Positions 19,781-51,105 of a stretch of DNA of 64,000 nt are shown here, piece by piece. Source of the DNA: Eledone cirrhosa (lineage: Eukaryota). Positions within the stretch are counted from its first letter, which is position 1. Each line of letters begins with the position of its first letter. The translations under genes and the position numbers were made by a program. The notes under the pieces were generated by a model. That model did not search any database. It worked only from the letters and a program-made list of their open reading frames with translations, and was not told the origin of the DNA. Location: contig OZ024740.1 of the NCBI GenBank assembly GCA_964016885.1, positions 231,570,001-231,634,000 on the forward strand, written 5' to 3'.

Positions 19781-22700
19781 TAGACATAGAATATTCGAAA
19801 ATATTCTGTATGTTTATAATAAACATTTTGAAGACCTAATCGCTATAGAATAGAATACGTCACGTATTACAATTAGATTCTCGATAAAAGCAAGGGAAGT
19901 AATCTACGCGTTTCATTCTTGTTAGAATTCATCAGGACTACATATCCAGTGCTTTTATCGAGAATGACACAGCTAGAGACTTATAGAATACTTAGCTGTG
20001 TACAGGAACTGGTTTGAAAGAGCGGTTGCCGGTCCGGCAGAAATTAGAAATTGGAATAAATGCTCTGAAATAGCGATATATATGTGAATATAGACATAGA
20101 ATATTCGAAAATATTCTGTATGTTTATAATAAACATTTTGAAGACCTAATCGCTATAGAATAGAATACGTCACGTATTACAATTAGATTCTCGATAAAAG
20201 CAAGGGAAGTAATCTACGCGTTTCATTCTTGTTAGAATTCATCAGGACTACATATCCAGTGCTTTTATCGAGAATGACACAGCTAGAGACTTATAGAATA
20301 CTTAGCTGTGTACAGGAACTGGTTTGAAAGAGCGGTTGCCGGTCCGGCAGAAATTAGAAATTGGAATAAATGCTCTGAAATAGCGATATATATGTGAATA
20401 TAGACATAGAATATTCGAAAATATTCTGTATGTTTATAATAAACATTTTGAAGACCTAATCGCTATAGAATAGAATACGTCACGTATTACAATTAGATTC
20501 TCGATAAAAGCAAGGGAAGTAATCTACGCGTTTCATTCTTGTTAGAATTCATCAGGACTACATATCCAGTGCTTTTATCGAGAATGACACAGCTAGAGAC
20601 TTATAGAATACTTAGCTGTGTACAGGAACTGGTTTGAAAGAGCGGTTGCCGGTCCGGCAGAAATTAGAAATTGGAATAAATGCTCTGAAATAGCGATATA
20701 TATGTGAATATAGACATAGAATATTCGAAAATATTCTGTATGTTTATAATAAACATTTTGAAGACCTAATCGCTATAGAATAGAATACGTCACGTATTAC
20801 AATTAGATTCTCGATAAAAGCAAGGGAAGTAATCTACGCGTTTCATTCTTGTTAGAATTCATCAGGACTACATATCCAGTGCTTTTATCGAGAATGACAC
20901 AGCTAGAGACTTATAGAATACTTAGCTGTGTACAGGAACTGGTTTGAAAGAGCGGTTGCCGGTCCGGCAGAAATTAGAAATTGGAATAAATGCTCTGAAA
21001 TAGCGATATATATGTGAATATAGACATAGAATATTCGAAAATATTCTGTATGTTTATAATAAACATTTTGAAGACCTAATCGCTATAGAATAGAATACGT
21101 CACGTATTACAATTAGATTCTCGATAAAAGCAAGGGAAGTAATCTACGCGTTTCATTCTTGTTAGAATTCATCAGGACTACATATCCAGTGCTTTTATCG
21201 AGAATGACACAGCTAGAGACTTATAGAATACTTAGCTGTGTACAGGAACTGGTTTGAAAGAGCGGTTGCCGGTCCGGCAGAAATTAGAAATTGGAATAAA
21301 TGCTCTGAAATAGCGATATATATGTGAATATAGACATAGAATATTCGAAAATATTCTGTATGTTTATAATAAACATTTTGAAGACCTAATCGCTATAGAA
21401 TAGAATACGTCACGTATTACAATTAGATTCTCGATAAAAGCAAGGGAAGTAATCTACGCGTTTCATTCTTGTTAGAATTCATCAGGACTACATATCCAGT
21501 GCTTTTATCGAGAATGACACAGCTAGAGACTTATAGAATACTTAGCTGTGTACAGGAACTGGTTTGAAAGAGCGGTTGCCGGTCCGGCAGAAATTAGAAA
21601 TTGGAATAAATGCTCTGAAATAGCGATATATATGTGAATATAGACATAGAATATTCGAAAATATTCTGTATGTTTATAATAAACATTTTGAAGACCTAAT
21701 CGCTATAGAATAGAATACGTCACGTATTACAATTAGATTCTCGATAAAAGCAAGGGAAGTAATCTACGCGTTTCATTCTTGTTAGAATTCATCAGGACTA
21801 CATATCCAGTGCTTTTATCGAGAATGACACAGCTAGAGACTTATAGAATACTTAGCTGTGTACAGGAACTGGTTTGAAAGAGCGGTTGCCGGTCCGGCAG
21901 AAATTAGAAATTGGAATAAATGCTCTGAAATAGCGATATATATGTGAATATAGACATAGAATATTCGAAAATATTCTGTATGTTTATAATAAACATTTTG
22001 AAGACCTAATCGCTATAGAATAGAATACGTCACGTATTACAATTAGATTCTCGATAAAAGCAAGGGAAGTAATCTACGCGTTTCATTCTTGTTAGAATTC
22101 ATCAGGACTACATATCCAGTGCTTTTATCGAGAATGACACAGCTAGAGACTTATAGAATACTTAGCTGTGTACAGGAACTGGTTTGAAAGAGCGGTTGCC
22201 GGTCCGGCAGAAATTAGAAATTGGAATAAATGCTCTGAAATAGCGATATATATGTGAATATAGACATAGAATATTCGAAAATATTCTGTATGTTTATAAT
22301 AAACATTTTGAAGACCTAATCGCTATAGAATAGAATACGTCACGTATTACAATTAGATTCTCGATAAAAGCAAGGGAAGTAATCTACGCGTTTCATTCTT
22401 GTTAGAATTCATCAGGACTACATATCCAGTGCTTTTATCGAGAATGACACAGCTAGAGACTTATAGAATACTTAGCTGTGTACAGGAACTGGTTTGAAAG
22501 AGCGGTTGCCGGTCCGGCAGAAATTAGAAATTGGAATAAATGCTCTGAAATAGCGATATATATGTGAATATAGACATAGAATATTCGAAAATATTCTGTA
22601 TGTTTATAATAAACATTTTGAAGACCTAATCGCTATAGAATAGAATACGTCACGTATTACAATTAGATTCTCGATAAAAGCAAGGGAAGTAATCTACGCG

Positions 22701-25700
22701 TTTCATTCTTGTTAGAATTCATCAGGACTACATATCCAGTGCTTTTATCGAGAATGACACAGCTAGAGACTTATAGAATACTTAGCTGTGTACAGGAACT
22801 GGTTTGAAAGAGCGGTTGCCGGTCCGGCAGAAATTAGAAATTGGAATAAATGCTCTGAAATAGCGATATATATGTGAATATAGACATAGAATATTCGAAA
22901 ATATTCTGTATGTTTATAATAAACATTTTGAAGACCTAATCGCTATAGAATAGAATACGTCACGTATTACAATTAGATTCTCGATAAAAGCAAGGGAAGT
23001 AATCTACGCGTTTCATTCTTGTTAGAATTCATCAGGACTACATATCCAGTGCTTTTATCGAGAATGACACAGCTAGAGACTTATAGAATACTTAGCTGTG
23101 TACAGGAACTGGTTTGAAAGAGCGGTTGCCGGTCCGGCAGAAATTAGAAATTGGAATAAATGCTCTGAAATAGCGATATATATGTGAATATAGACATAGA
23201 ATATTCGAAAATATTCTGTATGTTTATAATAAACATTTTGAAGACCTAATCGCTATAGAATAGAATACGTCACGTATTACAATTAGATTCTCGATAAAAG
23301 CAAGGGAAGTAATCTAAGCGTTTCATTCTTGTTAGAATTCATCAGGACTACATATCCAGTGCTTTTATCGAGAATGACACAGCTAGAGACTTATAGAATA
23401 CTTAGCTGTGTACAGGAACTGGTTTGAAAGAGCGGTTGCCGGTCCGGCAGAAATTAGAAATTGGAATAAATGCTCTGAAATAGCGATATATATGTGAATA
23501 TAGACATAGAATATTCGAAAATATTCTGTATGTTTATAATAAACATTTTGAAGACCTAATCGCTATAGAATAGAATACGTCACGTATTACAATTAGATTC
23601 TCGATAAAAGCAAGGGAAGTAATCTACGCGTTTCATTCTTGTTAGAATTCATCAGGACTACATATCCAGTGCTTTTATCGAGAATGACACAGCTAGAGAC
23701 TTATAGAATACTTAGCTGTGTACAGGAACTGGTTTGAAAGAGCGGTTGCCGGTCCGGCAGAAATTAGAAATTGGAATAAATGCTCTGAAATAGCGATATA
23801 TATGTGAATATAGACATAGAATATTCGAAAATATTCTGTATGTTTATAATAAACATTTTGAAGACCTAATCGCTATAGAATAGAATACGTCACGTATTAC
23901 AATTAGATTCTCGATAAAAGCAAGGGAAGTAATCTACGCGTTTCATTCTTGTTAGAATTCATCAGGACTACATATCCAGTGCTTTTATCGAGAATGACAC
24001 AGCTAGAGACTTATAGAATACTTAGCTGTGTACAGGAACTGGTTTGAAAGAGCGGTTGCCGGTCCGGCAGAAATTAGAAATTGGAATAAATGCTCTGAAA
24101 TAGCGATATATATGTGAATATAGACATAGAATATTCGAAAATATTCTGTATGTTTATAATAAACATTTTGAAGACCTAATCGCTATAGAATAGAATACGT
24201 CACGTATTACAATTAGATTCTCGATAAAAGCAAGGGAAGTAATCTACGCGTTTCATTCTTGTTAGAATTCATCAGGACTACATATCCAGTGCTTTTATCG
24301 AGAATGACACAGCTAGAGACTTATAGAATACTTAGCTGTGTACAGGAACTGGTTTGAAAGAGCGGTTGCCGGTCCGGCAGAAATTAGAAATTGGAATAAA
24401 TGCTCTGAAATAGCGATATATATGTGAATATAGACATAGAATATTCGAAAATATTCTGTATGTTTATAATAAACATTTTGAAGACCTAATCGCTATAGAA
24501 TAGAATACGTCACGTATTACAATTAGATTCTCGATAAAAGCAAGGGAAGTAATCTACGCGTTTCATTCTTGTTAGAATTCATCAGGACTACATATCCAGT
24601 GCTTTTATCGAGAATGACACAGCTAGAGACTTATAGAATACTTAGCTGTGTACAGGAACTGGTTTGAAAGAGCGGTTGCCGGTCCGGCAGAAATTAGAAA
24701 TTGGAATAAATGCTCTGAAATAGCGATATATATGTGAATATAGACATAGAATATTCGAAAATATTCTGTATGTTTATAATAAACATTTTGAAGACCTAAT
24801 CGCTATAGAATAGAATACGTCACGTATTACAATTAGATTCTCGATAAAAGCAAGGGAAGTAATCTACGCGTTTCATTCTTGTTAGAATTCATCAGGACTA
24901 CATATCCAGTGCTTTTATCGAGAATGACACAGCTAGAGACTTATAGAATACTTAGCTGTGTACAGGAACTGGTTTGAAAGAGCGGTTGCCGGTCCGGCAG
25001 AAATTAGAAATTGGAATAAATGCTCTGAAATAGCGATATATATGTGAATATAGACATAGAATATTCGAAAATATTCTGTATGTTTATAATAAACATTTTG
25101 AAGACCTAATCGCTATAGAATAGAATACGTCACGTATTACAATTAGATTCTCGATAAAAGCAAGGGAAGTAATCTACGCGTTTCATTCTTGTTAGAATTC
25201 ATCAGGACTACATATCCAGTGCTTTTATCGAGAATGACACAGCTAGAGACTTATAGAATACTTAGCTGTGTACAGGAACTGGTTTGAAAGAGCGGTTGCC
25301 GGTCCGGCAGAAATTAGAAATTGGAATAAATGCTCTGAAATAGCGATATATATGTGAATATAGACATAGAATATTCGAAAATATTCTGTATGTTTATAAT
25401 AAACATTTTGAAGACCTAATCGCTATAGAATAGAATACGTCACGTATTACAATTAGATTCTCGATAAAAGCAAGGGAAGTAATCTACGCGTTTCATTCTT
25501 GTTAGAATTCATCAGGACTACATATCCAGTGCTTTTATCGAGAATGACACAGCTAGAGACTTATAGAATACTTAGCTGTGTACAGGAACTGGTTTGAAAG
25601 AGCGGTTGCCGGTCCGGCAGAAATTAGAAATTGGAATAAATGCTCTGAAATAGCGATATATATGTGAATATAGACATAGAATATTCGAAAATATTCTGTA

Positions 25701-50666: not shown

Positions 50667-50667
50667 A

Positions 50668-51105
50668 TATATACAGTGTATTTTGCAATACACTGTATTT
50701 AATTAAGCATACAGTGTATTGCAAAATACACTGTATATACATTCATATATATATAGCTATTTCAGAGCACCAATTCTAATTTTCAATTTCTGCTTGACCG
50801 GCAACCGCTCTATATAATCAGTTCCTGATTATTTACTAGAATTCTATAAGAACCAAACATCCATGATTTCAGCAAACAGGAGGAGTAGTTGGCTTTGATA
50901 AGCATCAATAAATGCGAAACAATGCCTTGTCAGCTTTATCTCCCCCTGTTTGCTGGAAATTAAAGTAAGTGAGTCGGTCACTACTCTAAAACAATAGCAT
51001 AAGGTCTTCGAAATGCTTTTAATTAAGCATACAGTGTATTGCAAAATACACTATATATACATTCATATATATATATAGCTATTTCAGAGCACCAATTCTA
51101 ATTTT
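50668..51105 (+). mobile_element. Diverged ~1.3-unit member of the 316-bp family with a short 5' inversion
   Basis: Aligns to the 316-bp unit; palindrome at 50668-50738; ends ccaattctaatttt into (TA)n. Confidence 0.85.
50891..50935 (+). ncRNA. U3-A8 hammerhead with compensatory stem changes
   Basis: GGCT-TTGATAA-GCAT-caataa-ATGC-GAAACAA-tgcc-TTGTC-AGCT. Confidence 0.85.

What the first reader, a model, noticed from the sequence alone, without database searches (positions are those of the whole stretch)
19781..51105. Recurrent insertion architecture: two divergent arms joined 5'-to-5', both 3' ends fused to (TA)n
Seen: using the hammerhead to define sense, four loci have a left arm pointing left and a right arm pointing right: 19781-31017 (junction 28860/1), 35917-39152 (~36188), 39515-41120 (~40794) and 50668-51105 (~50700). 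The outer ends fall at AT-rich, often ATAT-like positions of the unit and merge into (TA)n. Established: 5' inversions are typical of Penelope-like insertions and of twin priming. Inference: both strands of a break in (TA)n prime reverse transcription by microhomology on the RNA, and multimers arise by rolling-circle copying of a circular template. This would be a microsatellite-targeted circRNA retrotransposition system relying on a trans-acting RT, possibly Penelope-like, that is not in this window.
Basis: partly seen in the sequence, partly recalled or inferred. Interest (0 to 1): 0.88.

Follow-up and report, generated by a model that had tools for sequence, protein, structure and literature searches.

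The report
Two-armed ribozyme arrays inserted by Penelope
These are hammerhead-ribozyme repeats (retrozymes) pasted into TA microsatellites as two back-to-back arms of one sequence variant, each arm ending at its own fixed site, which is the footprint expected if a Penelope-type reverse transcriptase copies one RNA, probably a circle, from both ends of a DNA break.

Summary
The architecture is real and genome-wide. The four window loci are tandem arrays of 310–438-nt units, each with a type I hammerhead motif (non-LTR retrozymes). Of 51 loci picked by hammerhead core alone, 34 have divergent arms, none convergent; a further family gives 18 of 29. Correction: the outer ends are not any AT-rich spot. 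Each family has two fixed ends, short (S) and long (L, ~26–60 nt further), and a two-armed locus nearly always uses one of each. That is the Penelope-like-element (PLE) 'tail' and its two known RT start sites. Ten autonomous-family PLE loci (mostly Neptune-type) here show the same S+L anatomy in (TA)n. In the youngest family both arms carry the same unit haplotype (23 of 25, versus 31 of 701 between loci) and run through the ribozyme cut site. Best reading: a PLE dimer primes both DNA ends on one RNA, probably a circle; host end-joining closes the centre; some arrays later expand locally. Not shown: cleavage, circles, empty sites, the partner family, raw-read junction support. Retrozymes and PLE anatomy are known separately; their combination, S+L pairing and haplotype identity were not found in print.

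The parts
19778..28860 (-). Locus 1 left arm, 29.3 copies of unit A; 3' end at the short site S (u126-139, numbering from the ribozyme cut), 5' end u35
28861..31017 (+). Locus 1 right arm, 7 copies of unit A; 5' end u178, 3' end at the long site L (u165)
19752..19777 (.). (TA)n left flank of locus 1, continuing an (ACAT)n array
31018..31036 (.). (TA)n right flank of locus 1, shared with an older Neptune-type terminus
29262..29312 (+). Example type I hammerhead of unit A (C3-G8 core at 29272, short palindromic stem III, predicted cut 29302/29303)
   Evidence: cleavage not tested
35917..36187 (-). Locus 2 left arm, unit B, ends at L (u166) in (TA)24
36188..36218 (+). Locus 2 junction insert, 31 nt, 29 of them copied from unit B
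36219..39155 (+). Locus 2 right arm, 9.3 copies of unit B, ends at S in (TA)n; internal units carry a variant that spread within this arm only
37083..37135 (+). Example hammerhead of unit B, U3-A8 core variant with full stem III, predicted cut 37126/37127
39518..40794 (-). Locus 3 left arm, 2.9 copies of unit C (438 nt), ends at S
40795..41121 (+). Locus 3 right arm, ends at L (u282) in (TA)n; hammerhead core at 40813, predicted cut 40843/40844
50666..50697 (-). Locus 4 left arm, 31 nt, S-type end, no (TA)n beyond three units
50698..51104 (+). Locus 4 right arm, 1.3 copies of a B-like unit, U3-A8 hammerhead (cut 50931/50932), ends at L in (TA)38
31037..31302 (-). Terminal remnant (80%) of an autonomous Neptune-type PLE family, with U3-A8 hammerhead; locus 1 sits in its TA flank
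39186..39491 (.).

Best explanation
Non-autonomous non-LTR retrozymes mobilised in trans by a Penelope-like element (Neptune-type RT + GIY-YIG). Steps: (1) an array is transcribed; hammerheads cut monomers, which are ligated to circles (inferred). (2) A PLE protein dimer binds the structured region around two internal RT start sites, S and L, ~26-60 nt apart (sites shown; binding inferred from PAc biochemistry). (3) The endonuclease cuts both strands of a TA-rich target (inferred). (4) One DNA 3' end primes at S, the other at L, on the same RNA (S+L pairing shown; haplotype identity shown for family A; same molecule inferred). (5) Both RTs read through the ligated cut site, often several times, and stop at scattered positions (shown as anatomy). 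(6) The two cDNA 3' ends are joined by microhomology or short templated inserts (shown). (7) Some arms later grow by local duplication (shown in some loci). About 0.85 for PLE-driven twin priming at S+L, about 0.55 for a monomer circle as template.
For: Divergent arms 34 of 51 unselected loci, 0 convergent; family G 18 of 29, 0 convergent. A-family end patterns: 992 L+TA and 761 S+TA hits genome-wide; among 100 L and 83 S ends on the first 284 Mb of C1, 50 divergent S-L pairs, 0 divergent L-L, 1 apparent S-S that proved to be two neighbouring loci; 18 of 20 'unpaired' L ends had an S arm on inspection. 16 of 18 two-armed B loci are S+L. S and L lie at homologous positions in the colinear units A, B, G. 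10 of 10 autonomous-family PLE loci whose two divergent outer ends could be read are S+L in (TA)n. PAc cuts and extends both strands, starts at two adjacent internal sites bounding the tail, and is predicted dimeric (PMC11167929). Family A arms identical in 23 of 25 loci vs 31 of 701 between loci; 0.23 differences per unit inside arrays vs 3.6 between loci, 19 haplotypes in 25 loci, 1 of 44 minor variants shared by both arms. Arm 5' ends not enriched at the cut site (A 3 of 60, 3.9 expected; B 1 of 38) and no excess variants there (3 of 71). Junction microhomology >=2 nt in 11 of 20 insert-free A junctions vs 18% null. Compensatory pairs in 19 of 65 predicted pairs across four units, plus C3-G8/U3-A8 core covariation.
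Against: No terminus of the PLE families sampled (50 loci) is homologous to A, B or C, so the partner is unidentified. 21 of 65 loci (and 11 of 29 G) are single-armed. Family B arms are rarely identical (0 of 15; 1.9% within vs 2.7% between per site). One G locus is S+S, and several older C and G loci have an off-site end. Exact 6-unit duplication in L152, recurrent variants in L058 and in window locus 2 show that part of the copy number is post-insertion. PAc uses uncleaved RNA in vitro, and family F arms keep an intact hammerhead, so circles are not required for twin arms. No empty target site was found.
Confidence: 0.72

Rival explanations
1. Same twin priming by a PLE, but the template is a long uncleaved tandem transcript of a parent array; no circle is involved.
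For: [quoted passage not shown]
Against: Arrays are far more uniform inside than between loci (0.23 vs 3.6 differences) and minor variants are almost never shared between arms (1 of 44), which asks for a one-unit bottleneck at or shortly before each insertion; covarying stems close the hammerhead.
Confidence: 0.15
2. Insertions are short two-armed copies; the multimers arise afterwards by unequal crossing-over or slippage (satellite-birth model of 10.64898/2026.07.22.740005).
For: L152 has an exact 6-unit duplication; L058 and window locus 2 carry variants spread within one arm.
Against: Both arms are often multimeric with the same haplotype; even arms of 1-2 units cross the cut site with scattered 5' ends, so the seed already exceeds one linear monomer. 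Explains size of some arms, not the anatomy.
Confidence: 0.07
3. One priming event; the inverted arm is made by self-priming or fold-back copying (as proposed for head-to-head pLTRs in PMC3846280) and then attached to the target.
For: Would explain identical haplotypes and junction microhomology at RNA stems (16-nt overlap in L032).
Against: Either arm can be the longer (median S 918, L 849 nt; Wilcoxon p=0.9, 46 pairs); L ends are base-precise even on a 17-nt arm (L061) with only 2-3 nt of target match; junctions are not palindromic.
Confidence: 0.05
4. Fold-back chimeric reads or mis-assembly create the inverted arms.
For: Junctions could not be checked in raw reads.
Against: Junctions are asymmetric and locus-specific, outer ends are reproducibly S+L with different flanks, and old diverged families show the same.
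Confidence: 0.01

Closest known systems
Metazoan non-LTR retrozymes (PMC7229834; 10.64898/2026.07.22.740005)
   Same: Tandem 150-450-nt low-GC units, a type I hammerhead per unit, no ORF; proposed circRNA template, tandem cDNA and PLE helper.
   Different: Those texts describe head-to-tail arrays only; the words 'inverted', 'microsatellite' and 'rolling' do not occur in PMC7229834, and the 2026 preprint ascribes arrays to local amplification. Here arrays are two-armed, (TA)n-targeted, with S+L ends; no pLTR homology to a helper was found.
EN+ Penelope-like elements (Neptune, Naiad, Penelope/Poseidon; PMC8557442, PMC3846280)
   Same: Head-to-head inverted 5'-truncated copy, 30-40-nt tail at one end only, (TA)n target preference, hammerheads including the U3-A8 variant (PMC4209133), occasional 8-12-bp TSD.
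   Different: Units are non-coding and multimeric on both arms; tail 26-35 nt in A/B/G, about 55-60 nt in C. The tail is described as 'optional'; here it is paired one-to-one with a tail-less arm.
PAc (Poseidon of Anolis) in vitro mechanism (PMC11167929)
   Same: Two adjacent internal RT start sites downstream of the hammerhead, both target strands cut and extended, AT-rich target, little RNA-target homology.
   Different: No strand or pairing preference between the two sites was reported, and the template was linear; here genomic products use one site each, and the template appears to be re-read.
L1 twin priming (listing of PMC2837659; details recalled)
   Same: Both target strands prime; inverted arm; microhomology at the inversion point.
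   Different: No poly(A); second site is fixed, not random; arms overlap fully in sequence and are multimeric; it is the majority outcome.
Non-autonomous Chlamys/MRC1 elements (PMC8557442, section 10)
   Same: Non-autonomous PLE derivatives with multicopy head-to-tail insertions.
   Different: Those lack canonical hammerheads and share 3' ends with their helpers.

Membership tests
non-LTR retrozyme | Tandem units of about 150-450 nt, GC below 50% | tested here: met
   310, 316, 438 nt; GC 33-39%
non-LTR retrozyme | Type I hammerhead motif in every unit | tested here: met
   Core and stems I-II by motif scan, folding and covariation; Rfam gave no hit at gathering score
non-LTR retrozyme | No coding capacity, no LTR pair | tested here: met
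   No ORF >=90 aa inside the arrays other than frames running into simple repeats at the ends; PBS/PPT not searched
non-LTR retrozyme | Self-cleavage and accumulation as circular RNA | not testable with these tools
   Needs RNA data or an assay
non-LTR retrozyme | TSD, when present, longer than 4 bp | tested here: inconclusive
   One 12-bp TSD read by eye at the non-TA site L036; hidden at TA sites; none seen at L064
Penelope-like element (autonomous) | ORF with PLE RT and GIY-YIG endonuclease | tested here: not met
   Absent from units and window; present elsewhere in the genome (L132, L135, L142)
PLE-mobilised non-autonomous element | Head-to-head inverted 5'-truncated copy | tested here: met
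   44 of 65 and 18 of 29 loci, none convergent
PLE-mobilised non-autonomous element | Tail at one end only (two RT start sites) | tested here: met
   same in 10 of 10 autonomous-family loci read
PLE-mobilised non-autonomous element | (TA)n/AT-rich target | tested here: met
   72 of 109 ends vs 4%; pre-existence of the TA run not shown
PLE-mobilised non-autonomous element | Sequence shared with the terminus (pLTR) of an autonomous family | tested here: not met
   No match among 50 GIY-YIG loci out of 10,596 candidates, nor; sampling is small
L1-type twin priming product | Poly(A) 3' end and non-overlapping arms from one linear RNA | tested here: not met

The most novel reading that the evidence does not exclude
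Twin rolling-circle target-primed reverse transcription: the two RT sites of one PLE dimer engage the two start sites of a single ribozyme-made RNA circle and copy it at once from both ends of a double-strand break, one displacing the other's product, so that satellites of up to several kilobases are written in one event. The same one-RNA/two-RT step would explain the long-unexplained inverted pLTR and one-sided tail of all EN+ PLEs.
Probability: 0.45. Interest if true: 0.82.

Novelty: new variant of a known kind. Interest (0 to 1): 0.62.

Why it matters
How PLEs make their tandem/inverted, one-tailed, microsatellite-targeted insertions is named as open in PMC8557442, and the PLE helper and circular template of animal retrozymes are hypotheses. 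This genome holds about a thousand young insertions of one 310-nt RNA whose ends, junctions and haplotypes can be read like reaction products. They predict a precise experiment (one RNA, two start sites, one per DNA end) and argue that retrozyme 'satellites' are largely written at insertion. A natural RT that writes multimers from a small RNA circle into TA repeats would also be of interest as a genome-writing enzyme.

Tried and rejected
Rfam: 0 hits; minimal hammerheads are below its thresholds. DNA search of G000 with unit A: nothing, because common words are skipped; patterns worked. Window RT frames (13467-14357 -, 7479-8162 +, 3961-4697 -) are LINE-type, not PLE (clade reading recalled). 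Partner search: BLAST and local alignment of units against 50 PLE loci matched only neighbouring retrozyme copies and a short two-armed family F; a motif-plus-ATG pattern gave one retrozyme copy; 31 loci held no linked ORF besides chance neighbours. Empty sites: flanks of 63 two-armed loci against all held DNA gave 3 candidates, none a clean empty allele. Telomerase-like addition of TA by the RT: TA length does not differ between S and L ends (medians 17 and 17, 31 each, p=0.6), non-TA sites lack added TA (L036, L064), flanks are often compound or degenerate; not excluded but unlikely. Sequencing runs: 20 of 24 listed runs from 17 studies hold unit A; no RNA holder listed. Laying 4 runs on 28560-29620: two Hi-C runs gave 0 reads (no test); two contig sets each gave one 340-nt contig (310 + 30, a closed loop of the unit, no differences), which fits a circle or tandem DNA equally; the junction was not tested. 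L076 (C arm joined 5'-to-5' to a B arm) was considered as a two-template twin, but both ends are L and ages differ, so a later deletion is likelier. Earlier scan findings: none. One search timed out and was redone.
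Full report
Setting. The window lies on contig C1 of a 3.0-Gb AT-rich animal genome, rich in (TA)n and (ACAT)n. Unit positions (u) are counted from the predicted hammerhead cut.

Observation. The four loci are as described: unit A 310 nt (29.3 + 7 copies, 99.9% identical), unit B 316 nt (0.9 + 9.3), unit C 438 nt (2.9 + 0.75) and a B-like copy (31 nt + 1.3 units). 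A and C have CUGANGA hammerhead cores with a short palindromic stem III; B and locus 4 have a U3-A8 core with a full stem III, a variant known from PLE hammerheads (PMC4209133, passages). A, B and a further family G are colinear homologues; G and A have C3-G8 where B has U3-A8. In a four-sequence alignment 19 of 65 predicted pairs show double changes (few sequences, no control). Monomers fold better than shuffles (z -4.5 to -4.9). Only the left end of locus 4 lacks (TA)n.

Genome-wide anatomy. Exact core patterns match 3,744 (A), 2,024 (C) and 495 (B) times (only the first 100 places of each are listed). I fetched the first 11 A, 20 B and 20 C loci in list order: 10, 15 and 9 are divergent two-armed, none convergent, 17 single-armed. 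Adding 14 loci chosen for several hits (biased towards two arms) gives 44, 0 and 21 of 65 (two fetches hold two neighbouring elements and are counted once). Family G, 29 loci from 11 contigs: 18 divergent, 0 convergent, 11 single. At least 10 nt of alternating TA follows 72 of 109 arm 3' ends, against 4% of random positions.

Two fixed ends. Arm 3' ends cluster at S (A u126-139, B about u131-140, G u131-140, C u212-226) and L (A u165, B u163-168, G u164-171, C u275-282). S overlaps an AT tract and its register varies; L is base-precise with 2-3 nt of match to TA. In G the S tract is less AT-rich yet the end is the same, so the site, not the AT content, decides. Patterns for A ends fused to TA give 992 L and 761 S hits. 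Of 83 S and 100 L ends on the first 284 Mb of C1, 50 form divergent S-L pairs within 20 kb (1.2 neighbours expected by chance), none is convergent, none is divergent L-L; the one S-S case is two neighbouring S+L loci. Of 50 unpaired L ends I fetched 20: 18 have an S arm missed by the exact pattern (one further case, L061, counted among the 18, has a 17-nt L arm), one runs into an N gap, one is single. B: 16 of 18 two-armed loci S+L, two with an off-site end. G: about 13 of 18 S+L, one S+S, four off-site. C is older and noisier (about 11 of 16 by eye).

Junctions. Of 30 A junctions, 20 have no insert; 11 of these overlap by >=2 nt (18% expected), 10 have inserts of 1-29 nt, often copied from the unit (one B junction failed in the script). 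Arm 5' ends are spread over the unit (mild skew to u1-130 in A, KS p=0.007, as expected for short arms) and avoid no part; 3 of 60 (A) and 1 of 38 (B) lie within 10 nt of the cut site (3.9 and 2.4 expected). Either arm may be longer (46 pairs, p=0.9). By contrast, short families E and F are two-armed with a one-sided tail but both arms stop near one 5' position (17 and 3 two-armed copies), as a short linear template would give.

One template. In family A the two arms have the same majority haplotype in 23 of 25 loci with >=250 comparable sites (5 of 30 left out as too short), against 31 of 701 between loci. Units differ from their own locus haplotype by 0.23 sites, loci from each other by 3.6; 19 haplotypes in 25 loci; 1 of 44 minor variants is in both arms; no excess of variants at the cut site. 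Family B is weaker (0 of 15 identical; 1.9% vs 2.7%), as expected for older, shorter arms but not supportive by itself. Post-insertion growth is evident: an exact 6-unit duplication (L152), recurrent variants (L058), a variant spread in one arm of window locus 2.

The helper. GIY-YIG gives 10,596 candidates, 150 scored. Fifty loci examined hold at least six families with RT, a CxxxxCxxC linker and C-terminal GIY-YIG (Neptune-type by the description in PMC8557442; no tree built), with open frames up to 938 and 1,096 aa. Several carry U3-A8 hammerheads. In the 10 loci where two divergent outer ends could be read (L113, L134, L137, L140, L143, L146-L150), one is short and one tailed, in (TA)n; the other 40 were single, cut by the fetch or not read. 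None shares terminal sequence with A, B or C. The window has no PLE coding match but has terminal remnants at 31037-31302 and 62777-63343.

Mechanism. Shown: anatomy, S+L pairing, junction signatures, haplotype identity in A, same anatomy in coding PLEs. From the literature: PAc cuts and extends both strands, starts at two adjacent internal sites that bound the tail, and is predicted dimeric (PMC11167929). Inferred: one RNA serves both primers; it is a ligated monomer read repeatedly; host end-joining closes the centre. Rivals: uncleaved multimer transcript, later satellite growth, fold-back, artefact (see fields).

What is known. Retrozymes with circRNA templates, tandem cDNA and PLE helpers are proposed in PMC7229834 (passages and Discussion read) and 10.64898/2026.07.22.740005 (parts 1-3 of 5 read). 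Inverted copies, one-sided tails and (TA)n targets are described for PLEs in PMC8557442 (passages and section 10), PMC3846280 (passages, which explains them by self-priming) and PMC8969392 (passages); PMC11167929 parts 1-2 of 4 were read. PMC4209133 notes opposite-strand hammerhead pairs 100-700 bp apart in a trematode. Eight searches found no account of two-armed retrozyme arrays, of one-to-one S+L use or of arm haplotype identity. Supplements of these papers and older subscription papers on Penelope structure were not seen and may state part of this.

Verdict. Real, and a known class of element carrying a known PLE anatomy; the value lies in the mechanism it exposes. New variant of a known kind; interest 0.62.

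Noticed in passing
window 16275-16476, 39186-39491, 51499-51681, 53516-53721, 61188-61379: Family E: ~200-nt MITE-looking palindromes with a one-sided ~80-nt tail, TA-flanked, each with its own central junction; likely the same twin priming on a short linear RNA. Many 'MITEs' in such genomes may be PLE products.
   Followed up: partly
L147:5131-5326, L140:7006-7205, L137:1-330: Family F: short two-armed element with an intact canonical type I hammerhead; both arms stop just 5' of the core; resembles u217-305 of unit A.
   Followed up: partly
L172-L201: Family G, 315-nt homologue of A/B with C3-G8 core; same anatomy on many contigs.
   Followed up: yes
window 62777-63343 (-): Terminal part (89-94%) of a second Neptune-type family.
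   Followed up: partly
window 9420, 45688, 63434 (+); 60845-61012: Further solitary hammerhead-like motifs and a TA-flanked palindrome with a hammerhead-like core.
   Followed up: no
window 12309-16117 (-); 3961-8162: Degraded LINE-type elements with RT (and an AP-endonuclease fragment at 5746-6264).
   Followed up: partly
window 9838-10522: 25-nt minisatellite, 27 copies, 94% matches.
   Followed up: no
L036:1380-3170: A-family locus in a non-TA site with an apparent 12-bp target duplication and ends shifted to nearby microhomologies.
   Followed up: partly
L076:919-1698: A C-family arm joined 5'-to-5' to a B-family arm, both with L ends.
   Followed up: partly
L152+L153:1737-9980: 26-unit single B arm with an exact 6-unit higher-order duplication.
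   Followed up: yes
L134:1275-4562, L132:4309-7122: Long open PLE frames (1,096 and 938 aa); L132 has direct pLTR-type repeats, L134 inverted ones.
   Followed up: partly
window 29303-29612: Unit A is held at 77-100% of words by runs of 17 studies under 18 organism codes; host range versus carry-over is unexplained.
   Followed up: partly
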